This document shows positions 54,271 through 64,000 of a stretch of 64,000 bases of DNA, in pieces. The DNA lies in NCBI GenBank assembly GCA_009773205.1, contig WPAE01000002.1, positions 3,241 to 67,240 of the forward strand, given 5' to 3'. Numbering within the stretch: position 1 is the first letter of the stretch; each line of letters begins with the position of its first letter. The notes beneath the pieces were generated by a model. That model was not told where the DNA came from and searched no databases. It saw only the letters and a list, made by a program, of their open reading frames with translations. Origin of the DNA: Ignavibacteria bacterium (GTDB taxonomy: Bacteria; Bacteroidota; Ignavibacteria; Ignavibacteriales; Melioribacteraceae). The position numbers and the translations under genes were made by a program.

Positions 54271-55093
54271 AGCACACGCTAAGATCAATATTGGTTTAGA
54301 TGTCTTGTCTAAACGCGAAGACGGCTTTCATAACCTAAATACATTGTTTTACCCGATCCTCGATCTATTCGATACACTTTATTTTGAGCGTTCAGATAAA
54401 TTCGAGTTCAAATGTGATTCTAAATCTATCCCAACTGATAGCTCTAATCTTGTTGTAAAAGCTGTTAAGTTGTTAGAAGATATTAGTGGAAAAAAACTTA
54501 CTGCAAAGGTAGAATTGCACAAAAAAATACCTTCACAAGCTGGTTTAGGCGGCGGTAGTTCTGATGCAGCTGCTACTTTAATTTCATTGAATGAAATGTT
54601 TCAACTTGAAATTAAGTACGAACAAATGTTAGAACTTGCTCTCGAACTTGGCTCCGATGTTCCTTTTTTCATAAAAGCAAAACCAGCTATAGGAAAGTTA
54701 CGTGGTGAAATTCTTGAGTACGTAGAACTTTTCATTGAAGAGCCGATTCTAATTGTGAATCCGTGTATTAATGTTTCCACTAAAGAGGCATTTTCATACA
54801 TTCAGCCAAAGGATACTGCAACAGAATTTAAAAATCTAATAGTAAATGAAAAATTAGACTACTCTAAATGTAGATCTGTAGTCAAAAATGATTTCGAGAC
54901 ACCGGTTTTTAATTTGCATCCACAATTACAACAAATCAAAAAGGAATTTTACAATCAAGGAGCTTTATTTGCTTTGATGTCCGGAACCGGCTCTACTATG
55001 TATGGAATTTTCCCGGATTTGAGTTCTGCCGAATCTGCAAGATCGAGAATGGATTCATCTTATTTCTGTTTTATGAGTACTCCTCACTTGTAA
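54251..55093 (+). CDS. ispE: 4-diphosphocytidyl-2-C-methyl-D-erythritol kinase
   Basis: AHAKINIGL, KKIPSQAGLGGGSSDAA, LGSDVPFF, MSGTGS. Confidence 0.96.
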   Translation: MKFIEIKAHAKINIGLDVLSKREDGFHNLNTLFYPILDLFDTLYFERSDKFEFKCDSKSIPTDSSNLVVKAVKLLEDISGKKLTAKVELHKKIPSQAGLGGGSSDAAATLISLNEMFQLEIKYEQMLELALELGSDVPFFIKAKPAIGKLRGEILEYVELFIEEPILIVNPCINVSTKEAFSYIQPKDTATEFKNLIVNEKLDYSKCRSVVKNDFETPVFNLHPQLQQIKKEFYNQGALFALMSGTGSTMYGIFPDLSSAESARSRMDSSYFCFMSTPHL

Positions 55094-56492
55094 CTGTATC
55101 TATTTCCAGTCCAGCTTTTTTATAAGGCAGTTTGATAATTACAGTTGTCCCCGGTGAATCGGCATTTCCAATTTTTGAAGGACTTATGATAGAAATTTCT
55201 CCTTGATGTTTGACAATAATTTCGTGAGTAATTGAAAGCCCCATACCACTTCCTTCAATTTCCGATTTCTTAACATTAGTAGCTCTATAGAAATGCAGAA
55301 AAATATCCTTTTGCTCTGGTTCCGGAATCCCAATTCCATTATCGCTTATTTCAATAAATAGCAATTCCTTTTCATCGGTTAAGATGATAAATATTTCTCC
55401 GTTCTGTCTTGAGTATTTTATTGCATTAGATATAAGATTTGATAGAGCTAATTCCAATAGCATTGGGGCGCCATATAAATCACATTTTTCTTTCCTCTTA
55501 TCGCTAAAACTCAGCATTATATTTTTCTCTTCAATATCTTCTAAACGAACATCAAGTATGTTTTTTATTAACTCTTCAATTCTAACTAATTCATTATTCT
55601 TAATATCCAGCAGTTTGATTCTAGAAAATCTGAGAATATCGTTGATAAGAGATATAGCTTCATCGCTTCTCAGCCTTGCGCGCTGAAGTTTATTAGTAAT
55701 CTCTAAATTTACCGGGCCTACATAGTTTCCAAGAAGGAGATCAATAATTGATTTAACAGCAATGACCGGAGATTTAATTTCATGAACTACACCAAGTGTG
55801 TATCTCTGTTTAGTGTTTTCAGCTTCTTTCAGCTTTTCAAGAGAATCTCTTAGCTGCTGCTCTCTCTTAAACAACTGCCTTGAAATCTTGTTGGTTATGT
55901 AAACACTTACAAATAGTGTAAATGAAAATGTAAGAACATATATCAGATCGTATTCTGATGAGAGAAAAGTAGAACTTTGAATAGTGCCAATGATTTTATG
56001 GCTTGGAATAATAAATAAATATTCTAAGTACAGCAGAACAACTAAGCTGATAGAAATAATTGCTGCGGCAGTATAAACTAAAAAGCCGGGCAATATCATA
56101 CTGCCAATTATCATGTGAAAAACAAATAACATAATTAACGGCGAATCAATTGTACCTGTAAAGTAAACAAGTAAAAGCAATTCCATTAAATCTAAAACCA
56201 TCATTATAAGAGAAGTGTGTAAACAGTTGAATTTATTTGGGCTGCAGCCAATACGTAAACGAAAAACATGAATAATTATATTATAAAAAAGAATTGTTAC
56301 TGCTATAATTAGTATGGCAACAAACTGAATTTCACTTAATCTGAAACTAAACAGATAGTTTACTATTAACAGAAATGCTATTAAGATTACTACAGCTAAG
56401 TATCGTAATCTTATAAACCACAAATTTCTGACCCTTATTGCTCTCCAGAACTCACCGTAATGGTGCGCCCAATCCGGTACAAGCGAAAGCAT
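55071..56492 (-). CDS. Integral-membrane sensor histidine kinase
   Basis: About five N-terminal TMs; H-box HEIKSP, N-box NLISNAIKY, DNGIG, GSGMGL. Confidence 0.9.
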   Translation of the reverse strand: MLSLVPDWAHHYGEFWRAIRVRNLWFIRLRYLAVVILIAFLLIVNYLFSFRLSEIQFVAILIIAVTILFYNIIIHVFRLRIGCSPNKFNCLHTSLIMMVLDLMELLLLVYFTGTIDSPLIMLFVFHMIIGSMILPGFLVYTAAAIISISLVVLLYLEYLFIIPSHKIIGTIQSSTFLSSEYDLIYVLTFSFTLFVSVYITNKISRQLFKREQQLRDSLEKLKEAENTKQRYTLGVVHEIKSPVIAVKSIIDLLLGNYVGPVNLEITNKLQRARLRSDEAISLINDILRFSRIKLLDIKNNELVRIEELIKNILDVRLEDIEEKNIMLSFSDKRKEKCDLYGAPMLLELALSNLISNAIKYSRQNGEIFIILTDEKELLFIEISDNGIGIPEPEQKDIFLHFYRATNVKKSEIEGSGMGLSITHEIIVKHQGEISIISPSKIGNADSPGTTVIIKLPYKKAGLEIDTVTSEEYS

Positions 56493-56696: not shown

Positions 56697-58613
56697 TTAG
56701 GCAATATATCTTCCACGTTTTACATAGTGAGTATGCAGTAATTTATGCGACTTATGACCGCAAGGTCCATCGGTAAAAAATTCTTCATACAATTTAACTA
56801 CGTTTGGATTATCGTGAGCTTTGCGTACTTGAAGCGATTCATCTTCCGAATAAATTGCTTGCGCACGTTTCTTACGAATTTCTGGTGTTGTTGGTATTGG
56901 CTGCCCGCCGCCGCCTAAACAGCCGCCTGGACAAGCCATAAATTCTATGAAATGACATTCGGAGAATTTACCGCCTGCTTTAATATCATCCATAATCTTT
57001 TTAGCATTTGCAGTACCGTGTGCCACAGCAACTTTAAGCGTTACACCTTTAAGCCAATCCCAGTTTGGAACTAAGTGTTTAATAACATCGGGAACCGGTC
57101 CAAATTTTTCTCCAAGAGGCAGCTCTACATATTTAATTCCTTCGAAACCTCTAACAGGAGTAACGTTGGCATTTGCAAAAGCATCTTCCGTTTTATTGCC
57201 GGTTATAAATTCATAGATAGAGCGGATTGCAGCTTCCATAACACCGCCTGTAGCACCAAAAATTAATCCGGCGCCAGAAGCTTCGCCAAACGGAGAGTCG
57301 AAATCACTCTTTGGCATTTCCGGTAAATTAATTCCCGCTTCTTTAATCATCCGAGCTAATTCGCGGGTTGTTAAACCATAATCAACATCTTTGTAACCGC
57401 TGTCATTCATTTCGGGTCTGTTGCACTCATATTTTTTTGCAGAACAAGGCATAACAGCTACAGAAACTATGTCTTCTGGTTTTACACCAGCTTTTTCTGC
57501 GTAAAAAGTTTTTATTAATGCGCCAAACATTTGCTGCGGAGATTTTGCAGTTGAAAGATTATCAATTTGTTCTGGATAATAATGCTCTAAGAATTTTACC
57601 CATCCTGGTGAACAAGAAGTGAATTGTGGAAGTGCAACGGGTTCTTTTTGAACTATTGCTTTGTAAAGACGGAGAACTAATTCCGTTCCCTCTTCAAAGA
57701 TTGTTAAATCAGCTGTAGTATTTGTATCGAATACTTTATCGAAACCAATTCTACGCAAAGCTGTGTTTAATTCTTTTGTTAGAGAATGCCCTGCTTCCAT
57801 TGCAAATTCTTCGCAGATAGCCGCACGTGGCGATGGTGCTGTTTGAATTACAACATGCTTAGCCGGGTCATCAATAGCAGCCCAAATTTCATCTGATGGA
57901 TCGTTTGCGCGGAGTGCAGCCGTTGGACAGCGGTTAATGCATTGCCCGCAGTTTATACAAATTACATCAAGCAGAGGCTTATCTAAAAAAGTGCTTATGC
58001 GTGTATTATGTCCACGCTCTACAGATTCTAGAACACCAACTTCTTGTAAATCAATACATGTTCTAACGCATCTCTTGCAAAGAACGCATTTACTCATATC
58101 TCTTATAACAGAATAAGAAGATTCATCAAGTTCGTATCGCGGCGCTTCTACATGTCCAAAAGTAAAATTATCAACTCCATACTCTTTAGCTAAATACTGA
58201 AGTTCGCATTTGCCGTTTCTTAAACATGAATAGCATTCGCCGTAATGCTCACTTAACATCAAATCAATTATATGGCGGCGTGCTTTGCGTACAGAAGGCG
58301 TGGATGTTTTAATTTTAATAGGCGAAGTAATTGGATAAGCACAAGAAGCCTGAAGCGTTCTCATTCCTTCTACTTCTACAACGCAAACGCGGCATACACC
58401 GGCAACGCACAAATCTTCATGATGACAAAGTGTTGGAACTGTAATTCCATTCATTTTGCATGCATCAAGAATTGTTGTGCCAAGTGGAACAGTAACTTTC
58501 TTTTCATTTATCTCTATTGAAATTGTTCCGCCTATGTAAGAAGGATCAACCGGTTTCTCAATAACGAGGGGCTTCTGGCTAACCGGAGCTCTAAGTTTAC
58601 CTTTATTTTCCAT
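56697..58613 (-). CDS. hydA: [FeFe]-hydrogenase catalytic subunit (group A, multimeric)
   Basis: [2Fe-2S] TLC..CRVC, His-ligated H..EC..C..C, 2x[4Fe-4S] CVLCKRC / CINCGQC; H-cluster motifs FTSCSPGW, MPCSAKK, EFMACPGGCLGGGG. Confidence 0.95.
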   Translation of the reverse strand: MENKGKLRAPVSQKPLVIEKPVDPSYIGGTISIEINEKKVTVPLGTTILDACKMNGITVPTLCHHEDLCVAGVCRVCVVEVEGMRTLQASCAYPITSPIKIKTSTPSVRKARRHIIDLMLSEHYGECYSCLRNGKCELQYLAKEYGVDNFTFGHVEAPRYELDESSYSVIRDMSKCVLCKRCVRTCIDLQEVGVLESVERGHNTRISTFLDKPLLDVICINCGQCINRCPTAALRANDPSDEIWAAIDDPAKHVVIQTAPSPRAAICEEFAMEAGHSLTKELNTALRRIGFDKVFDTNTTADLTIFEEGTELVLRLYKAIVQKEPVALPQFTSCSPGWVKFLEHYYPEQIDNLSTAKSPQQMFGALIKTFYAEKAGVKPEDIVSVAVMPCSAKKYECNRPEMNDSGYKDVDYGLTTRELARMIKEAGINLPEMPKSDFDSPFGEASGAGLIFGATGGVMEAAIRSIYEFITGNKTEDAFANANVTPVRGFEGIKYVELPLGEKFGPVPDVIKHLVPNWDWLKGVTLKVAVAHGTANAKKIMDDIKAGGKFSECHFIEFMACPGGCLGGGGQPIPTTPEIRKKRAQAIYSEDESLQVRKAHDNPNVVKLYEEFFTDGPCGHKSHKLLHTHYVKRGRYIA

Positions 58614-59799
58614 TGTTACCTCCGTTATTGAAAATTTCTTCTTTGAAGTTTTCTAAGATTGATAAAAATGCGTTTGGGCTTGATTGACCTAAGCCGCACT
58701 TGGATGAAAGCTGCATTGTTTTGCCAAGTTCTTTTAGTTTGTTGATGTAGCCGAAAGTGTATTCATGCCTCTCAAGCATTTCAACTCCTTCTAAAAGTTT
58801 TACATTTCCTATTCGGCAAGGTGTACATTGCCCGCAAGATTCTTCAACAAAAAATTCCATAAAGTTTTTTAACACATGAAGCATATTTCTACTTTCATTA
58901 AATATCATAATAGAACCGCCGGTTGCAGCATCTTCGTAGCCAAATATTCTTTCGAATTGAGATTTTGGAATGCAAATACCAGAGGCACCTCCAACTTGTA
59001 CGGCTTTTGTGTCTTTAGCTTCAACAAGTTTTAGCAGCTCAGATATTTTTGTTCCCCAAGGCAATTCGTAAACTCCAGGCTTATCGCAATCGCCGCTAAC
59101 AGAAAATAATTTTGAACCGGTTGATTTATCTGTACCATGTTTGCAGTACCAAGAACCGCCTTTAATAACAATATGAGCAACTGAGGCAAAAGTTTCTACA
59201 TTATTAACGGTTGTTGGCTTTCCCATAAAACCAGTGTTTACTGGATAAGGCGGGCGGTTGCGTGCTTCGCCGCGGTTCCCTTCAAGAGACTCAATCAATG
59301 CAGTTTCTTCGCCGCAAACATAAGCGCCGCTGCCAAGACGAATTTTAATGTCAAAATTAAAATCTACTTTGCCGCAAATATTTTTGCCGAGCAAGTTTTC
59401 TTTACGCATCGTCTCTAAATAATCTTCTAAAGATTTTAACATGTACTCGTATTCGCCGCGTAAATAAACTATGCCAAGCTTAGCGCCAATTACATAACCG
59501 GCTATTACCATTCCGTCAAAAACCAATTCGGGATATTCGAGCAGCAGAACTCTATCCTTAAATGTTCCCGGTTCACCTTCATCTGCATTACATACTACAT
59601 ATTTTTCTTCAGCAGAAGCTGCAGCTACTAAAGTCCATTTTGTTGCTGTTGGAAATCCTGCACCGCCTCTTCCCTTTAGTTTTGATTCGCGAAGTTCAAA
59701 TAAAATATCTTCACGTTTTAAAGAGACTGCTTTAATTATTGATTCACCTTTAATGTAAGGCGAGAATATTACAGATCCTTCTCTATTTTTCTTTTCCAT
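58603..59799 (-). CDS. hydB: NuoF-like diaphorase subunit, short form
   Basis: GRGGAGFP, NADEGEPGTFKDR, YVCGEETAL, ESCGQCTPCRIG..CGLG; ends right after the single [4Fe-4S] domain. Confidence 0.92.
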   Translation of the reverse strand: MEKKNREGSVIFSPYIKGESIIKAVSLKREDILFELRESKLKGRGGAGFPTATKWTLVAAASAEEKYVVCNADEGEPGTFKDRVLLLEYPELVFDGMVIAGYVIGAKLGIVYLRGEYEYMLKSLEDYLETMRKENLLGKNICGKVDFNFDIKIRLGSGAYVCGEETALIESLEGNRGEARNRPPYPVNTGFMGKPTTVNNVETFASVAHIVIKGGSWYCKHGTDKSTGSKLFSVSGDCDKPGVYELPWGTKISELLKLVEAKDTKAVQVGGASGICIPKSQFERIFGYEDAATGGSIMIFNESRNMLHVLKNFMEFFVEESCGQCTPCRIGNVKLLEGVEMLERHEYTFGYINKLKELGKTMQLSSKCGLGQSSPNAFLSILENFKEEIFNNGGNNGK

Positions 59800-59807
59800 T
59801 CTTCACC

Positions 59808-60281
59808 TCACTTAATCGCGTTTAATATTTGTACAGCTTTTTCGGTAGATACTTTTGGGAATACTCTTTCATTAACAAGTAATGCAGGACCTTGATCGCA
59901 CATTCCTAAACAGTTAACATATTCGAGAGTAATTTTGTTATCCTTTGTTGTTTCTCCGAACTTAATTCCGAGTTCTCTTTCGATTGCTTTAGCAACACTT
60001 GCTTTGCCTGCTATATCGCAAGTAATTGTCTGGCAGAGACGAACTATGTTTCTTCCTTTCGGGTTAGTGTTCAAAAAAGCATAGAAAGAAATTACGCTGT
60101 AAACTTCAACCGGATGAATATCTAGCAGGCGTGCAATTTCTTGTTGAGCGAAATCTGGAACGTGTTTATGCTTTCTTTGAATATCCTGAAGAATTGGTAA
60201 AAGTGCCGAACGTGAATTGCCATGTTCCTTAACAAGCAATTCTATCTCTTCAGTCATAGCATTTTTTTCTAGTACAAGCAT
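59808..60281 (-). CDS. hydC: NuoE-like [2Fe-2S] subunit
   Basis: VYSVISFY, CQTITC, NCLGMCDQGP. Confidence 0.92.
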   Translation of the reverse strand: MLVLEKNAMTEEIELLVKEHGNSRSALLPILQDIQRKHKHVPDFAQQEIARLLDIHPVEVYSVISFYAFLNTNPKGRNIVRLCQTITCDIAGKASVAKAIERELGIKFGETTKDNKITLEYVNCLGMCDQGPALLVNERVFPKVSTEKAVQILNAIK

Positions 60282-60664
60282 TATATTTTCTCCCCAACTT
60301 TGTTAAGTAATGTTTCTACTTTAGCAACCAATTGCTCTGGAGAAATTGGCTTTTCAACAAAGTCATCCACAGGCACCATTTCGCTCTTGTTAAAATCCAT
60401 TCCTATTGCTTTAGATACAGAAGTGTACATGAGAATTGGTGTGTGAATATTTTCTCTTCTTAACTTTTGAGCAAGAAAGAACCCATCATCAGGCTCATCC
60501 ATCATAACATCAAGAATAATTAAGTTTGGTTTTCTTTCCTCAATAATTTTGAAGCCATCCGTTGGGTTAGATGCTGTAACAACATCGTAGCCTTTCGATT
60601 TTAACACTAGCGAGCTGGCGTCCAGAATATCTGGATCGTCGTCGATAATAGCTATTAGCGCCAT
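60281..60664 (-). CDS. Single-domain response regulator
   Basis: IDDD, LDVMM phospho-Asp, TS, EKP; no output domain. Confidence 0.92.
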   Translation of the reverse strand: MALIAIIDDDPDILDASSLVLKSKGYDVVTASNPTDGFKIIEERKPNLIILDVMMDEPDDGFFLAQKLRRENIHTPILMYTSVSKAIGMDFNKSEMVPVDDFVEKPISPEQLVAKVETLLNKVGEKI

Positions 60665-60678
60665 AGCTTTCTCCTTTT

Positions 60679-62166
60679 TTAGTTCTGATTTATTGGTAAG
60701 TGAATTGTGAACGTAGTTCCGTAACCGAAAACAGATTCTACTTCGATTTTTCCGTAATACGACTCGACAATTTTTTTAACTATTGATAAACCTAATCCTG
60801 TACCACTAATGCCGCGGGTCTTTTCATTTTTTGCGCGATAAAACTCGTTGAACAATCTGTCTTTTTCTTCCGGCTTCATACCAATTCCGGTATCGCGAAT
60901 TTTTATAGAGACATAACTGTTTTCTTGATGCGCAATAATGTAAATAGAGCCGCTTTCTTTATTGTATTTTATAGCATTGCTAATCAGATTTGTGAACAGA
61001 CGGGTAATTTCACTTACATCAGCTTTAATAATCGGAAGGTTTTCTTGAATATTAGTATCAACAACAATTTCTTTTTTCTTCAGTTCAAATTCTAAGAATT
61101 GTAAAGTACTCTTTATAGTTTCTATAATATTTACATTTTCAATTTCACGATGCTTGGTTTTCAATTCCATTCTAGAAATATCGAGAAGATCATTAACAAG
61201 GTCTGTTAAACTTCTGAGCCGAACCGTAGATCTTGTTAAATATTCTTTCTCTTTTTCCTTATCAACACCAAGAGAATCGTCCAAAATGATATTTATAAAA
61301 CCCTGAACTGCTGCAAGCGGAGTTTTAAGCTCGTGAGCAACCATAGAAACAAATTGAGATTTTATCAGTTCAATCTTTTTGAACTGAGTTACGTTGCTGA
61401 GAATTATTACAACTCCAGCTAAACTACCATCCGGATTTGGAACCGGAGTGCAAGCTGCTTCAATTATTAATTCATTATTAGGAAGAATTTCTATTTGAGT
61501 AGTGTAAGTTTTTAGAAGAATTTTTTCTTTAGAGATTATTTTATCTATTATTTCAGAAATTTCTTTCGGGAGTTTCTCAACAACCTTCTCGCCAATTTTT
61601 ACATCTCTAATATTTAGAAAACGAAGAGCAGCATAATTAAAATAAACAAGCTCTTCGTTTCGGTTTATTACTATAACGCCGTCGCTTATTGCTTTAATTA
61701 TTGTGTTGAGCCGGGATTTTTCTGAAGCAAGTTCAAGCAGTTTTTCTTCACGTTCTTGCTTAAGCCGCAAAGCTTCAAGAATTAGTTGGCGCTGTTTTAG
61801 TCCTTGCTCAATTTGATAAATAAACTCTTCTGGTGTAAACGGTTTTGGAATATAGCTATATGCGCCAAGCCGTGTGGATTGAATGGCAGTATCGTAACTT
61901 GCATAAGCAGTTGCTATAAAGCAGATTGTATTAGGGAATGTTGTTTTAATTTCTTTAAGAACTTCCAGACCGTCAATATCCGGCATCTTTAAATCAATCA
62001 CCGCAACATCAAAATCTTTTGATGTTCCTAAACGAATACCTACTTCGCCGCAATCGGCAGTTTCTACTTCGTATCCTTCGTCCTCAAGTAATCTTTGCGT
62101 TCCAATGCGTAAGCCTTTTTCGTCATCAACAATAAGGATACTAGCTTTTTTAACTTGATCAGACAT
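60679..62166 (-). CDS. Hybrid REC-PAS-histidine kinase
   Basis: REC (VDDE, IDLKMPDIDG, PKPF), PAS-like ISDGVIVIN, H-box AHELKTP, NLISNAIKY, DTGIG, GTGLGL. Confidence 0.92.
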   Translation of the reverse strand: MSDQVKKASILIVDDEKGLRIGTQRLLEDEGYEVETADCGEVGIRLGTSKDFDVAVIDLKMPDIDGLEVLKEIKTTFPNTICFIATAYASYDTAIQSTRLGAYSYIPKPFTPEEFIYQIEQGLKQRQLILEALRLKQEREEKLLELASEKSRLNTIIKAISDGVIVINRNEELVYFNYAALRFLNIRDVKIGEKVVEKLPKEISEIIDKIISKEKILLKTYTTQIEILPNNELIIEAACTPVPNPDGSLAGVVIILSNVTQFKKIELIKSQFVSMVAHELKTPLAAVQGFINIILDDSLGVDKEKEKEYLTRSTVRLRSLTDLVNDLLDISRMELKTKHREIENVNIIETIKSTLQFLEFELKKKEIVVDTNIQENLPIIKADVSEITRLFTNLISNAIKYNKESGSIYIIAHQENSYVSIKIRDTGIGMKPEEKDRLFNEFYRAKNEKTRGISGTGLGLSIVKKIVESYYGKIEVESVFGYGTTFTIHLPINQN

Positions 62167-62179
62167 TTATCACATTTTG

Positions 62180-62596
62180 TTAATTGCTTTTTGGTACAAC
62201 CTCGTAAGATTCTAACTTCGATAGCAATTCTTCTACTACAACAGGCTTGTTCAAAATACCGTCACACTTAATCCATTCCCTTTCTTCACTTGTAGATACA
62301 CTAAATTTGTAACCGGTTTCGTAAGTAGCAGAAGTAAGAATAAACACCGGCATTTGCTTTCCGTGTGCAGTTTTTTTGATTTTATAAGCTAGAATAAAAC
62401 CGGAATCCATTTGTTCCATAATTAAATCTATAATAGCCGCATCTGGTTTCTCTTTCTGGAAAACGTTAAATCCTTCTTCTGCACTTTCTGCACTAACAAC
62501 TAGAAAACCTTTTGCTTCAAGCAGCATTTTATTTTGTTCTAATAAATCAATATCATCATCAACAAGCAAGATTTTTTTTACATCAGCTAAGTTCAT
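62180..62596 (-). CDS. Single-domain response regulator
   Basis: VDDD, IDLIM phospho-Asp, TS, NKP; no output domain. Confidence 0.92.
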   Translation of the reverse strand: MNLADVKKILLVDDDIDLLEQNKMLLEAKGFLVVSAESAEEGFNVFQKEKPDAAIIDLIMEQMDSGFILAYKIKKTAHGKQMPVFILTSATYETGYKFSVSTSEEREWIKCDGILNKPVVVEELLSKLESYEVVPKSN

Positions 62597-62609: not shown

Positions 62610-64000
62610 TTAATTCAATAAAACGTTTGTATTTAATTTTACCGGAAATTTAATTGTAAATGTAGTTCCTTTTCCTTCAAGACTTTTAACTCTAATATCA
62701 CCTTTGTGCATTTTTACTATTCCGTAAGTAATAGCTAAACCAAGTCCTGTTCCTTTGCCCATTTTCTTTGTTGTAAAAAAAGGAGTAAATATTTTTGCAA
62801 CATTTTCAGCAGGTATTCCGCACCCGGAATCAGAAATTTCTGCAGTTAGAAATTCTTCGGTGCGCTTAATGTTAACAGATATTTCTTTCTGTTCGCATGA
62901 TTCAACTGCTTCTACAGCATTAACAAGTAAATTGATAAAAACTTGTTTTATCTGATCTCCATCGCCGCCTATAATTGCATCTTCGGTAAGTTCATTTATA
63001 TTAAAAGTTACTCCACTGTATTCTGGATTCAATCTCAAAGTTGATACAATTCCTTTAACTATATCTGCTGCATTAATTGTAGAAATACGGAGTTTACCTT
63101 GTCTTGCAAAATTTAGAAGATTAGAGACAATATTTCTGCATCTGTTAGCTTCTTCCATAATTAATGCTAAGTCTTCGCTATTCTGATTCTCGCCGCCCGA
63201 TTTTTCTAACTTGCGTTTCAGCATTGAAGCATAAAGCATAATTGAACCAAGTGGATTATTAATTTCGTGTGCCACTCCGGCAGCAAGCTGACCAATTGAA
63301 GCAAGTTTTTCAGCGCTGTTAAGCTGCTCATGCGTTTCTTTAATCTCTATGTTAGCGGCTTCAAGTTTATCAATCAAATACGGAAGGCACATATCATCTT
63401 CTGCTAAGCATTTTGCAATGGCTACTGCATAGTTTCTGCAGGTAGAGTATCCGCAAGAGCCGCAATTTAATTCATCGCTCTTGGTTAATTTGTTAGTACG
63501 TAAAAGAATTTCTTTAATCTCTTCTTCACTTGGCATTGGTCTTCTTTGAGGTTTTGATGTAAACTTCCTCTTAAGGTTAACATCTCTTGAGTTAAAGATG
63601 TTACTTTGCCACTCTCGCTTATCCAATGAGTTCAAGTTTTCATTTATGTAACAAACTACTTTTTCTCTTCTCGAATAATAGTTCAAATCGGAGTCTATTG
63701 CCGGTCCATTTATACAGCCTTCGCAGAAAAGTATATCAACAAATTTCGATTTAAGATTACCATTTGCAATTTCTTCTATAATCTCCGTTACTTTAGTTCT
63801 TCCTTCTACAACAATAATATCCTTATGAAGAATATCTTCATTAATATTTGCTGTTTTAAGCAAGCCGCCTACAAGCGGATACGATTTTCCTAAATATGCG
63901 TGTGGTTTGTCAAAATCGGTTTCTTCTAGTTCATCGAAATTTATGTTCTGTTCTCGAAAAATTTTTTTCAGCTCTTTAAATGTTAAAACTGCATCAACAG
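62610..64000 (-). CDS. [FeFe]-hydrogenase-like / Fe-S / histidine kinase fusion (group C1-type putative H2 sensor), 5'-truncated
   Basis: Frame stays open to the window edge (VDAVLTFKEL..); ILFCEGCINGP; CGSCGYSTC..C Fe-S domain; H-box AHEINNP, N-box, G1, F and G2 boxes. Confidence 0.85.
   Translation of the reverse strand, partial: VDAVLTFKELKKIFREQNINFDELEETDFDKPHAYLGKSYPLVGGLLKTANINEDILHKDIIVVEGRTKVTEIIEEIANGNLKSKFVDILFCEGCINGPAIDSDLNYYSRREKVVCYINENLNSLDKREWQSNIFNSRDVNLKRKFTSKPQRRPMPSEEEIKEILLRTNKLTKSDELNCGSCGYSTCRNYAVAIAKCLAEDDMCLPYLIDKLEAANIEIKETHEQLNSAEKLASIGQLAAGVAHEINNPLGSIMLYASMLKRKLEKSGGENQNSEDLALIMEEANRCRNIVSNLLNFARQGKLRISTINAADIVKGIVSTLRLNPEYSGVTFNINELTEDAIIGGDGDQIKQVFINLLVNAVEAVESCEQKEISVNIKRTEEFLTAEISDSGCGIPAENVAKIFTPFFTTKKMGKGTGLGLAITYGIVKMHKGDIRVKSLEGKGTTFTIKFPVKLNTNVLLN

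What the first reader, a model, noticed from the sequence alone, without database searches (positions are those of the whole stretch)
62610..64000. Kinase whose input domain is a degenerate H-cluster fold plus a CxxCGYxxC Fe-S domain
The ORF track starts at 63863, but the frame is open to the edge and reads VDAVLTFKEL, which matches the segment after the P2 motif in [FeFe]-hydrogenases. The P3 motif is altered to ILFCEGCINGP (canonical ExMACxxGCxxGGG: Met replaced, one residue shorter, ends in GP), like group C sensory enzymes. CGSCGYSTC...C follows, then a coiled coil and an NtrB-type HisKA/HATPase. No PAS domain is apparent between the Fe-S domain and the kinase, unlike HydS. Inference: the signal passes from the cluster redox state directly into the DHp helix.
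Basis: partly seen in the sequence, partly recalled or inferred. Interest (0 to 1): 0.75.

Follow-up and report, generated by a model that had tools for sequence, protein, structure and literature searches.

The report
Hydrogenase-like sensor fused to histidine kinase
The gene at the window's edge encodes a hydrogenase-like iron-sulfur sensor joined directly to a histidine kinase, sits between two hydrogenase operons, and belongs to a widespread family already noted in genome papers but never tested biochemically.

Summary
The minus-strand frame is open to the window edge. Pfam finds the last 98 positions of the [FeFe]-hydrogenase H-domain, a PF04060 Fe-S domain, HisKA and HATPase_c, and no PAS domain.

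I recovered the missing N-terminus from the window's own contig (L086; 10,000 nt overlap, 0 mismatches). The protein is 663 aa.
- It has two N-terminal [4Fe-4S] motifs.
- P1 is SSPCP and P2 is GPCIAKKSE.
- P3 is DILFCEGCINGP, with Cys-x2-Cys instead of Cys-x3-Cys.
- The C-terminal Fe-S motif is Cx2Cx4Cx16C.

All four H-cluster cysteines and K358/E361 are present, so the site is variant, not degenerate.

The Cx2Cx spacing marks a large group of proteins. Their sensor module is fused to kinases, sigma-54 activators, GGDEF or MCP domains. The Cx3C group carries PAS domains.

The last Fe-S cysteine sits 40 residues before the phospho-His on one predicted helix. Across 213 fusions this distance falls in steps of seven (33, 40, 47, 54, 68).

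The order hydCBA, sensor kinase, REC, REC-kinase recurs across many phyla.

Kinase-fused group C hydrogenases were already noted in Elusimicrobia, Hydrogenedentota and Caldithrix, so this is a new member of a known, uncharacterised kind. It is most likely an H2- or redox-responsive kinase controlling hydrogenases.

The parts
62610..64000 (-). 3' 1391 nt of the sensor-kinase gene (aa 202-663 of 663, plus stop). The first 201 codons lie beyond the window edge, on the same contig (L086:4546-5146).
   Evidence: The full gene was read from L086:4546-6537. L086 matches the window over 10,000 nt with 0 mismatches.
63702..63998 (-). C-terminal part of the H-domain (aa 202-300). It includes YPLVGG, the equivalent of the F417 region.
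   Evidence: PF02906, E 8.5e-16, profile positions 148-245. The N-terminal half of the AF2 model of P0001 matches [FeFe] hydrogenases in Foldseek (target-normalised TM up to 0.62).
63702..63737 (-). Variant P3 motif DILFCEGCINGP (D289-P300). The cysteines C293 and C296 are spaced Cx2C.
   Evidence: Read directly. HMMER places a one-residue gap against MACPGGC. The spacing is conserved across the Cx2C group.
63387..63464 (-). C-terminal Fe-S domain, Cx2Cx4Cx16C (C380, C383, C388, C405).
   Evidence: PF04060, E 6.8e-08. The four Cys are invariant or nearly so in 129 relatives. The same motif occurs in TmHydS and TamHydS (PMC8163306).
63270..63386 (-). Helical linker L406-A444 between the last cluster Cys and the phospho-acceptor His.
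   Evidence: AF2 predicts a continuous helix 406-467. The Cys-to-His distance is 40 here; 201 of 213 family sequences have 33, 40, 47, 54 or 68.
63099..63293 (-). HisKA (DHp) domain with H-box HEINNPL. H445 is encoded at 63267-63269.
   Evidence: PF00512, E 2.2e-15. The closest solved structure is ZraS, 9jfj.
62637..62966 (-). HATPase_c catalytic domain. N box NLLVNAVEA, G1 DSGCGI, F box FTPFFTTK and G2 GKGTGLGL are present.
   Evidence: PF02518, E 3.3e-28. The boxes were read in the translation.
62180..62596 (-). Stand-alone receiver protein (138 aa), 13 nt downstream. It is the likely first phospho-acceptor.
   Evidence: PF00072, E 6.6e-14. A similar REC gene follows the sensor in most of 80 loci from many phyla.
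60679..62166 (-). REC-PAS-HisKA-HATPase hybrid kinase (495 aa).
   Evidence: Pfam. A REC-HisKA-HATPase gene holds this position in distant phyla.
60281..60664 (-). Second stand-alone receiver protein (127 aa).
   Evidence: PF00072, E 4.8e-22.
56697..60281 (-). hydC (59808-60281), short hydB (58603-59799, 398 aa) and hydA (56697-58613). This is a trimeric [FeFe] hydrogenase of the NADH-dependent A6 type and the likely regulated target.
   Evidence: Pfam. NCBIfam NF040763 scores 796.1 bits against a cut-off of 765. Closest solved structure: A. woodii HydA1, 7q4v.
55071..56492 (-). Further histidine kinase (473 aa), 204 nt after hydA. Whether it belongs to the system is uncertain.
   Evidence: HisKA/HATPase_c hits and a weak PilS-like 6TM hit. 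It is present at this position in Ignavibacteria relatives.

Best explanation
The gene encodes a cytoplasmic sensor histidine kinase. Its input is a complete group-C-type (putatively sensory) [FeFe]-hydrogenase module: two N-terminal [4Fe-4S] clusters, an H-domain that keeps the four H-cluster cysteines but has no proton-relay Cys and a one-residue-shorter P3 loop, and a C-terminal Cx2Cx4Cx16C cluster domain.

Proposed mechanism (inferred, not shown):
1. Slow H2 binding or oxidation at the H-cluster changes the redox and conformational state of the sensor module. [quoted passage not shown]
2. The C-terminal cluster domain, whose last ligand (C405) caps the N-terminus of the signalling helix, passes this change on as a register-dependent motion of a dimeric coiled coil.
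3. That motion reaches the DHp His (H445), 40 residues away, and switches the kinase/phosphatase balance.
4. Phosphate flows to the adjacent stand-alone REC proteins and the REC-PAS kinase.
5. The system tunes expression or activity of the two flanking hydrogenases: a bifurcating-type hydCBA upstream and an NADH-dependent short-HydB hydCBA downstream.

Shown: domain content, ligand conservation, helix continuity in a model, heptad quantisation of the linker, and synteny.
Inferred: H-cluster occupancy, H2 responsiveness, the direction of regulation and the output.
For: Domains. Full-length sequence from the window's own contig with P1, P2, P3 and Fe-S motifs.

Conservation of the active-site pocket in 69 Cx2C-type sequences:
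- C300 68/69; C355, C499 and C503 69/69.
- K358 58/69, E361 66/69, P231 64/69, S323 67/69, P324 64/69.
- These values are comparable to the Cx3C, PAS-bearing group.

TmHydS shares G at M353 and Y at F417 and lacks Cys at C299; it incorporates [2Fe]H and reacts with H2 (PMC10055695). Pro at C299 occurs in about 10% of group C enzymes.

The sensor module is fused to kinase, sigma-54 AAA+, GGDEF and MCP outputs, which is the behaviour of a true input domain.

Coupling to the kinase: AF2 helix 406-467; 201 of 213 linkers equal 5 mod 7.

Context:
- The gene starts 2 nt after the upstream hydA stop.
- 68 of 80 loci from many phyla have a catalytic hydA nearby, mostly hydC-hydB-hydA immediately upstream.
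- The kinase boxes are intact.
Against: - No member of the Cx2C or kinase-fused group has been characterised.
- The shortened loop contains the cysteine that bridges [4Fe-4S]H to [2Fe]H, so cofactor geometry or occupancy could differ.
- The AF2 confidence is low exactly around P3 (residues 294-317) and around 236-260.
- Authors of PMC11406978 could hardly find P1-P3 with published signatures in some group C enzymes.
- M497L in CpI lost [2Fe]H, although TamHydS has Leu at this position and binds it.
- In TamHydS the C-terminal cluster does not respond to H2.
- The cluster contains no DNA-binding output, so the regulated process is not identified.
- hydEFG maturases were not seen in the window ORFs that I scanned.
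Confidence: 0.55

Rival explanations
1. It is a cluster-only redox or O2 sensor. The H-domain holds only a [4Fe-4S] cluster and no [2Fe] subsite, as in Nar1/NARF-type proteins. The kinase then reports the ferredoxin/NADH redox poise, or O2 damage to Fe-S clusters, rather than H2.
For: - The Cx2C spacing shortens the loop that carries the bridging cysteine.
- The proton-relay Cys is replaced by Pro.
- AF2 is unsure of the P3 region.
- Four Fe-S sites would suit a redox sensor.
- Relatives of this lineage are described as reacting fast with O2 (TamHydS).
Against: - Residues that serve only the [2Fe] subsite in known enzymes remain strongly conserved in the Cx2C group: K358, E361, P231/S232 and S323-P324. 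That is not expected if the subsite were lost.
- The gene is tightly linked to hydABC across phyla.
- No direct comparison with Nar1 sequences was made here.
Confidence: 0.25
2. It is an accessory, catalytically active subunit of the neighbouring HydABC complex (the 'BfuT' of PMC11406978). The kinase part would be secondary or would regulate the complex post-translationally through the single-domain REC proteins, not through transcription.
For: - The gene starts 2 nt after hydA and follows hydCBA in most loci.
- The cluster has no DNA-binding response regulator.
- PMC11406978 treats the gene as a subunit of sub-type IV and V clusters.
Against: - All canonical proton-pathway positions are replaced: C299 to P, S319 to A, and no Glu at the positions that E279 and E282 take in my hand alignment to CpI. 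This argues for slow turnover, as in TmHydS and TamHydS.
- The same sensor module is fused to sigma-54 activators, GGDEF and MCP domains elsewhere, which fits a signalling role and not a structural one.
Confidence: 0.12
3. It senses another small ligand of the diiron site, CO or O2, rather than H2.
For: TmHydS and TamHydS show unusual CO tolerance, and TamHydS forms a distinct O2-derived state. The altered P3 loop could retune ligand preference.
Against: There is no positive evidence. The conserved partner genes are hydrogenases, not CO dehydrogenases or oxidases.
Confidence: 0.08

Closest known systems
Kinase-fused group C [FeFe] hydrogenases already noted in genomes: the Elusimicrobia lineage V enzyme (bioRxiv 10.1101/765248) and 'BfuT' of sub-type V clusters in Hydrogenedentota and Caldithrix abyssi (PMC11406978; HydDB best hit WP_006928132.1)
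   Same: A group C H-domain fused to a histidine kinase instead of PAS, placed next to trimeric group A hydABC. My genome scan recovers full-length relatives from Hydrogenedentota, Calditrichota and Elusimicrobia with the same gene order. The Elusimicrobia paper names Ignavibacterium album as carrying a related enzyme.
   Different: Those papers give only domain annotation. They do not report the Cx2C spacing, the heptad-quantised linker, the conserved REC / REC-kinase partners, or, for Ignavibacteria, the second short-HydB hydrogenase operon downstream. I did not align those specific sequences directly.
TmHydS (Thermotoga maritima; group C, subclass M2f)
   Same: Two N-terminal [4Fe-4S] clusters, an H-domain lacking the C299 relay, Gly at M353, Tyr at F417, the GP-type P3 ending seen in both groups of relatives compared here (not read in TmHydS itself), and a C-terminal Cx2Cx4Cx16C cluster.
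   Different: TmHydS carries a PAS domain and no kinase. It has Ser at M497, where this protein has Leu. The PAS-bearing group compared here has Cx3C in P3, where this protein has Cx2C. I could not confirm TmHydS's own spacing from the texts held.
TamHydS (Thermoanaerobacter mathranii; group D, subclass M2e)
   Same: Same three-part sensor with no PAS domain, Leu at M497, and a gene next to a trimeric hydrogenase and a kinase-like ATPase gene. AF2 predicts a homodimer with the two protomers parallel along the C-terminal helix.
   Different: [quoted passage not shown] It has Ser at M353, where this protein has Gly. No sequence with Ser-Pro-Cys in P2 appears among the 150 closest representatives.
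[NiFe] regulatory hydrogenase systems (HoxBC-HoxJ/HoxA and HupUV-HupT/HupR; HydDB group 2b)
   Same: An H2-sensing hydrogenase coupled to a histidine kinase that controls hydrogenase genes (HydDB table). The logic is analogous.
   Different: The metal site and fold are unrelated. The sensor and the kinase are separate proteins, and the kinase has a PAS-like domain. The output is a known DNA-binding regulator, which is absent here.
RnfB and CFeSP-type PF04060 Fe-S domains
   Same: The same small Cx2Cx4Cx16C [4Fe-4S] domain. Besides the Pfam hit, NCBIfam rnfB models match residues 379-407 of P0001.
   Different: In those proteins the domain is an electron-transfer module. Here it is the last element before a signalling helix.

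Membership tests
[FeFe]-hydrogenase family (H-domain) | PF02906 H-domain fold | tested here: met
   E 8.5e-16 on the C-terminal 98 profile positions in the window fragment. The profile is matched from position 1-2 to 245 in full-length relatives. The Foldseek target-normalised TM-score to DdH is up to 0.62.
[FeFe]-hydrogenase family (H-domain) | Four cysteines ligating the H-cluster (P1 Cys, P2 Cys, two P3 Cys) | tested here: met
   C138, C186, C293 and C296 in the full-length protein from the window's contig. They are invariant or nearly so in the family.
[FeFe]-hydrogenase family (H-domain) | Canonical P3 spacing Cys-x3-Cys (ExMxCxxGCxxG) | tested here: not met
   The motif reads FCEGC, i.e. 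Cys-x2-Cys. HMMER needs a one-residue gap. This spacing is shared by 69 of 130 close representatives.
[FeFe]-hydrogenase family (H-domain) | Binds the [2Fe] subsite and reacts with H2 | not testable with these tools
   Indirect support only: K358, E361, P231/S232 and S323-P324 are conserved.
Group C putative sensory [FeFe] hydrogenases (HydS type) | Proton-relay Cys299 and the canonical proton pathway are absent; a small residue replaces M353 | tested here: met
   C299 is Pro, M353 is Gly and S319 is Ala. This matches the group C statistics in PMC10055695.
Group C putative sensory [FeFe] hydrogenases (HydS type) | Two N-terminal [4Fe-4S] motifs plus the C-terminal Cx2Cx4Cx16C motif | tested here: met
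   CKRCYSCIRECP, CISCGHCVKVCS and CGSCGYSTC-x16-C, as described in PMC8163306.
Group C putative sensory [FeFe] hydrogenases (HydS type) | PAS domain after the C-terminal cluster (subclass M2f) | tested here: not met
   No PAS family reaches E <= 0.01. Only 39 residues lie between the last Cys and the phospho-His.
Group C putative sensory [FeFe] hydrogenases (HydS type) | Encoded next to a group A hydrogenase and regulatory genes | tested here: met
   The gene lies between two hydCBA operons with REC and kinase genes. 68 of 80 related loci have a catalytic hydA nearby.
HydDB subgroup C1 (histidine kinase-linked) versus C3 | k-NN or phylogenetic placement in HydDB | not testable with these tools
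   HydDB is not available here. The literature is inconsistent: kinase-fused Caldithrix and Hydrogenedentota relatives are called C3, while other HATPase-bearing enzymes are called C1.
HisKA-type sensor histidine kinases | DHp domain with H-box His, and a catalytic domain with N, G1, F and G2 boxes | tested here: met
   PF00512 at 2.2e-15 and PF02518 at 3.3e-28. HEINNPL, NLLVNAVEA, DSGCGI, FTPFFTTK and GKGTGLGL were read. ZraS (9jfj) matches at E 7e-37.
HisKA-type sensor histidine kinases | Cognate receiver encoded nearby | tested here: met
   A REC gene lies 13 nt downstream, with acidic pocket DDD, Asp in AAIIDLIM, Thr in ILTS and Lys in LNKP. The pairing itself was not tested.
HisKA-type sensor histidine kinases | ATP-dependent autophosphorylation | not testable with these tools
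   Needs an assay.
Nar1/NARF-type H-cluster-less proteins | Retain the [4Fe-4S] cysteines but have lost the residues that hold the [2Fe] subsite | tested here: inconclusive
   The [2Fe]-contacting residues K358, E361, P231 and S232 are conserved here, which argues against membership. No Nar1 sequence was compared directly.

The most novel reading that the evidence does not exclude
The Cx2C-type H-domain defines a distinct and very widespread class of sensor input module with a re-shaped H-cluster site. It is wired to kinase, sigma-54, c-di-GMP and chemotaxis outputs. Through its C-terminal cluster domain it acts as a lever on a heptad-registered coiled coil. In Ignavibacteria it would work as an H2-pressure switch between a bifurcating and an NADH-dependent hydrogenase. 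The fused kinase would then give the first simple biochemical readout proving that [FeFe] 'sensory' hydrogenases actually sense H2.
Probability: 0.3. Interest if true: 0.65.

Novelty: new member of a known kind. Interest (0 to 1): 0.4.

Why it matters
Whether group C and D [FeFe] hydrogenases really sense H2, and how they signal, is still open. As of 2026 only the two model enzymes TmHydS and TamHydS have been characterised biochemically, and the favoured idea, redox change of the C-terminal cluster, has just been challenged (PMC13104023).

A version in which the sensor is covalently joined to a standard histidine kinase offers a direct assay: autophosphorylation with and without H2. The heptad-locked linker gives a defined element to mutate.

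In this organism the sensor lies between two different hydrogenase operons. That placement suggests a switch between a ferredoxin-plus-NADH (bifurcating) enzyme and an NADH-only enzyme for H2 production as H2 builds up, which bears on fermentation and syntrophy in sediments and digesters.

The specific gene is one ordinary member of a family with at least 545 loci in species-representative genomes. The value lies in the family, not in this instance.

Tried and rejected
- **NCBIfam naming of the sensor half.** The best model is TIGR04105 (group B1 monomeric hydrogenase) at 195.6 bits, far below its 450-bit cut-off. No curated model names this family.
- **Promoter and terminator scan over the 10-gene cluster.** Counts were at or below shuffle expectation, so it says nothing about operon structure.
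- **Anchoring the Cx3C group to TmHydS.** I took P0245, which shows the TmHydS substitution pattern (A, G, S), and searched genomes. It turned out to be a Bacillota protein with no Thermotoga hit. The link to TmHydS therefore rests on published residue identities only.
- **Odd P1 in the catalytic HydA.** TSCSPGW looked unusual. It is also found in A. woodii HydA1 (7q4v) and in 48 of 80 neighbouring HydAs, so I dropped it as an anomaly.
- **Maturases.** I looked for hydE, hydF and hydG among 19 window ORFs and found none. This is not informative about the genome as a whole.
- **Strict monophyly of the Cx2C group.** In an NJ tree built without the P3 columns, 53 of 70 Cx2C sequences form one pure clade and 57 of 60 Cx3C sequences form another. 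The rest are scattered. The split is strong but not clean, so I do not claim strict monophyly.
- **Rejected as the main reading: 'degenerate H-cluster'.** The full-length sequence keeps the ligands and the [2Fe]-contact residues.
Full report
**1. Observation**

The mechanical ORF list gives a minus-strand ORF at 62610-63863 that starts at a TTG. The same frame is open up to the window edge. Translating 62610-63998 gives 462 residues that begin VDAVLTFKEL and end at a stop.

Pfam on this fragment finds:
- PF02906 (Fe_hyd_lg_C): E 8.5e-16, residues 1-99 on profile positions 148-245 of 245.
- PF04060 (FeS): E 6.8e-08, residues 177-206.
- PF00512 (HisKA): E 2.2e-15, residues 236-300.
- PF02518 (HATPase_c): E 3.3e-28, residues 345-454.
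- No PAS family at E <= 0.01.

The best NCBIfam matches for the kinase half are AtoS and ZraS.

**2. The missing N-terminus**

The exact protein of the downstream hybrid kinase is on record on an ENA metagenome contig (ERZ27284381 k139_277263, 72.6 kb; locus L086). L086 overlaps the last 10,000 nt of the window with 0 mismatches, so it is the window's own contig. The complete gene (L086:4546-6537) encodes 663 aa. It contains:
- two ferredoxin-type motifs, CKRCYSCIRECP and CISCGHCVKVCS;
- APS at 81-83 (CpI A230-P231-S232);
- P1 IISSPCPAV (ligand C138; Pro at the C299 proton-relay position);
- P2 IGPCIAKKSE (Gly for M353; C186, K189 = K358, E192 = E361);
- P3 DILFCEGCINGP (Leu for M497; C293 and C296);
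- the C-terminal motif C380-x2-C383-x4-C388-x16-C405;
- the H-box with H445.

That test is not met. The site is a variant, not a wreck.

**3. What the P3 change means**

HMMER aligns 'dilfce.gcingpa' with 'evmacpggcmsggg' of a solved HydA, with a one-residue gap between the two cysteines.

A full HMMER scan of 1.84 billion representative proteins with the sensor part (residues 1-414 of the 92%-identical P0001) found 5184 relatives, 1001 of them at E <= 1e-30. I aligned the best 150. They fall into two groups.

| Feature | Cx2C group | Cx3C group |
|---|---|---|
| P3 pattern | D.LFC.GCI.GP | E..AC.GGCI.GP |
| Representatives | 68 | 60 |
| Length | 563-1035 aa | mostly 545-600 aa |
| Kinase fusion | 42 of 68 | 1 of 60 |

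Pfam scans of the groups:
- Cx2C with kinase (43 scanned): HisKA in 41, HATPase_c in 42, PAS in only 6-7.
- Cx2C without kinase (26 scanned): Sigma54_activat in 13 (HTH_8 in 10), GGDEF in 4, MCPsignal in 3.
- Cx3C (60 scanned): PAS in 35-38.

In an NJ tree built without the P3 columns, 53 of 70 Cx2C sequences form one pure clade and 57 of 60 Cx3C sequences form another. The short P3 is therefore an inherited signature of a large lineage whose sensor module is a promiscuous input domain.

In that lineage (69 sequences, including P0001) the residues that matter for the H-cluster are kept:
- C300 68/69; C355, C499 and C503 69/69.
- K358 58/69, E361 66/69, P231 64/69, S323 67/69, P324 64/69.

This is about as good as in the Cx3C group. 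The relay position C299 shows Pro 23, Ala 15, Thr 13, Ser 4 and Asn 3 as its five commonest residues, none of them Cys.

Published work on TmHydS is consistent with this. Group C enzymes carry Ala (~43%), Pro (~10%) or Ser (~10%) at this position and Gly (~51%) at M353, and TmHydS (A131, G177, Y223, S267) still takes up [2Fe] and reacts with H2 (PMC10055695). The window protein has Pro, Gly, Tyr and Leu at the four positions.

**4. Coupling to the kinase**

AlphaFold2 on P0001 with 56 homologs gives mean pLDDT 71.4. It predicts a single helix from residue 406, directly after the last cluster ligand C405, through H445 to residue 467. Foldseek matches the C-terminal half to ZraS and other DHp-CA kinases, and the N-terminal half to [FeFe] hydrogenases. 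Confidence is low at 236-260 and 294-317, the loops around the active site.

I measured the distance from the last Fe-S cysteine to the phospho-His in 213 distinct Cx2C-type kinase fusions:

| Distance (residues) | Sequences |
|---|---|
| 40 (this protein) | 130 |
| 47 | 63 |
| 54 | 4 |
| 33 | 2 |
| 68 | 2 |

So 201 of 213 are 5 mod 7, against 1 in 7 expected if length were free. The sequences are related, so this is not a probability, but the separate length classes are all in register. A further handful have about 141-160 residues, and a minority of the fused kinases carry PAS hits.

This is the pattern of a continuous coiled-coil signalling helix.

**5. Context**

All genes on the contig lie on one strand with gaps of 16 nt or less:
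1. hydC (162 aa)
2. hydB (662 aa, with extra Fer4 domains; the bifurcating type)
3. hydA (576 aa)
4. the sensor kinase, whose ATG lies 2 nt after the hydA stop
5. REC (138 aa)
6. REC-PAS-HisKA-HATPase (495 aa)
7. REC (127 aa)
8. hydC (157 aa)
9. hydB (398 aa, only the NuoF core)
10. hydA (638 aa; NCBIfam NF040763 'NADH-dependent [FeFe] hydrogenase, group A6', 796 bits against a 765-bit cut-off)

A further kinase follows after 204 nt. The same order is seen in related Ignavibacteria contigs.

A scan of one genome per species found at least 545 loci encoding relatives. The best 80 nearly all match the query over almost its full length. They come from Ignavibacteria, Bacteroidales, Planctomycetota, Hydrogenedentota, Myxococcota, Acidobacteriota, Calditrichota, Melainabacteria, Clostridia, Actinomycetota, Verrucomicrobiota, Spirochaetota, Elusimicrobia and Fibrobacteres.

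In 68 of these 80 loci a catalytic hydA is nearby, mostly as hydC-hydB-hydA immediately upstream on the same strand. In most loci a stand-alone REC and a REC-HisKA-HATPase protein follow the sensor. The second, short-HydB operon downstream is mainly an Ignavibacteria feature. No DNA-binding response regulator is encoded in the cluster.

**6. Mechanism**

Most likely (confidence 0.55), this is an H2-responsive sensor kinase.

Shown:
- a complete sensory-type hydrogenase module with conserved cofactor ligands;
- an intact kinase;
- a register-locked helical connection between them;
- conserved linkage to hydrogenase genes and to receiver proteins.

Inferred:
- the H-domain carries an H-cluster;
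- H2 changes its state and that of the N-terminal clusters;
- this moves the C-terminal cluster domain and the coiled coil, switching the kinase;
- the relay adjusts the two hydrogenases.

[quoted passage not shown] It is weakened by the 2026 finding that this cluster in TamHydS is not reduced under 1 atm H2, while an N-terminal cluster is. The authors of that study favour a structural role for the C-terminal domain (PMC13104023). The same paper reports an AF2 homodimer with the protomers parallel along the C-terminal helix, which fits a dimeric coiled coil that here continues into DHp.

Rivals:
- a cluster-only redox or O2 sensor (0.25);
- an accessory subunit of HydABC (0.12);
- a CO or O2 sensor (0.08).

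**7. Comparison with what is known**

- HydDB defined group C1 as 'histidine kinase-linked (putative)' (PMC5037454).
- A study of Hydrogenedentota described 'BfuT', a group C3 hydrogenase with a histidine-kinase domain encoded with bfuABC, also found in Caldithrix (PMC11406978).
- The biochemical literature still treats group C as PAS-linked. It has characterised only TmHydS and TamHydS.

The window gene is therefore a new member of a known, uncharacterised kind.

It fails two membership features of the textbook families: the Cx3C spacing of P3 and the PAS domain of M2f HydS. I could not assign a HydDB subgroup.

Three points I did not find in the papers I read:
- the Cx2C signature and its link to output-domain diversity;
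- the heptad-quantised linker;
- the conserved REC / REC-kinase partners.

**8. Verdict**

- Novelty is low for the gene and moderate for the family-level features.
- Interest is 0.4.

Noticed in passing
window 56697-60281 (-) versus L086:323-4543: Two different trimeric [FeFe] hydrogenase operons flank the sensor. Upstream, beyond the window, HydB is 662 aa with extra Fer4 domains (the bifurcating type). Downstream, in the window, HydB is 398 aa with only the NuoF core, and HydA passes the NCBIfam 'NADH-dependent, group A6' model (796 bits against 765). This suggests a regulated switch between two routes of H2 production.
   Followed up: partly
window 56697-58613 (-), HydA P1 motif: The catalytic HydA reads TSCSPGW instead of the textbook TSCCPxW. 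The same variant occurs in A. woodii HydA1 (PDB 7q4v) and in 48 of 80 HydAs next to sensor homologs, so it is ordinary. Which residue then ligates the cluster was not resolved.
   Followed up: partly
window 60281-62596 (-) and loci L006-L085: The 10-gene cluster encodes no DNA-binding response regulator. The trio of sensor kinase, stand-alone REC and REC-HisKA-HATPase is conserved across phyla. The final output of the relay is unknown.
   Followed up: partly
proteins P0125-P0264 (alignment A1): In other organisms the same Cx2C sensor module is fused to sigma-54 AAA+ plus HTH_8 (13 of 26), GGDEF (4) or MCP signalling domains (3). These would be one-component H2/redox-responsive transcription activators, cyclases and chemoreceptors.
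   Followed up: partly
window 63408-63410 (-), residue C398: The window protein has an extra cysteine (AIAKCLAEDD) inside the C-terminal Fe-S domain. The four homologs read in full have Asp or Glu there, and no residue reaches a majority at this position in the 56-sequence alignment. It is not one of the four conserved ligands.
   Followed up: no
window 55071-56492 (-): A further histidine kinase (473 aa) lies 204 nt after hydA, with a weak PilS-like six-helix membrane domain hit. It is also present at this position in related Ignavibacteria.
   Followed up: no
window 1-55000: The 18 housekeeping-side ORFs I scanned (purF, lysS, trpS, mnmA, accC, thiolase, gldE, HPr kinase, ispE, folP, rpe and others) include no hydE, hydF or hydG maturase. 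The DNA is 82% identical to a Stygiobacter sp. MAG (Ignavibacteria) over the hydrogenase cluster.
   Followed up: partly
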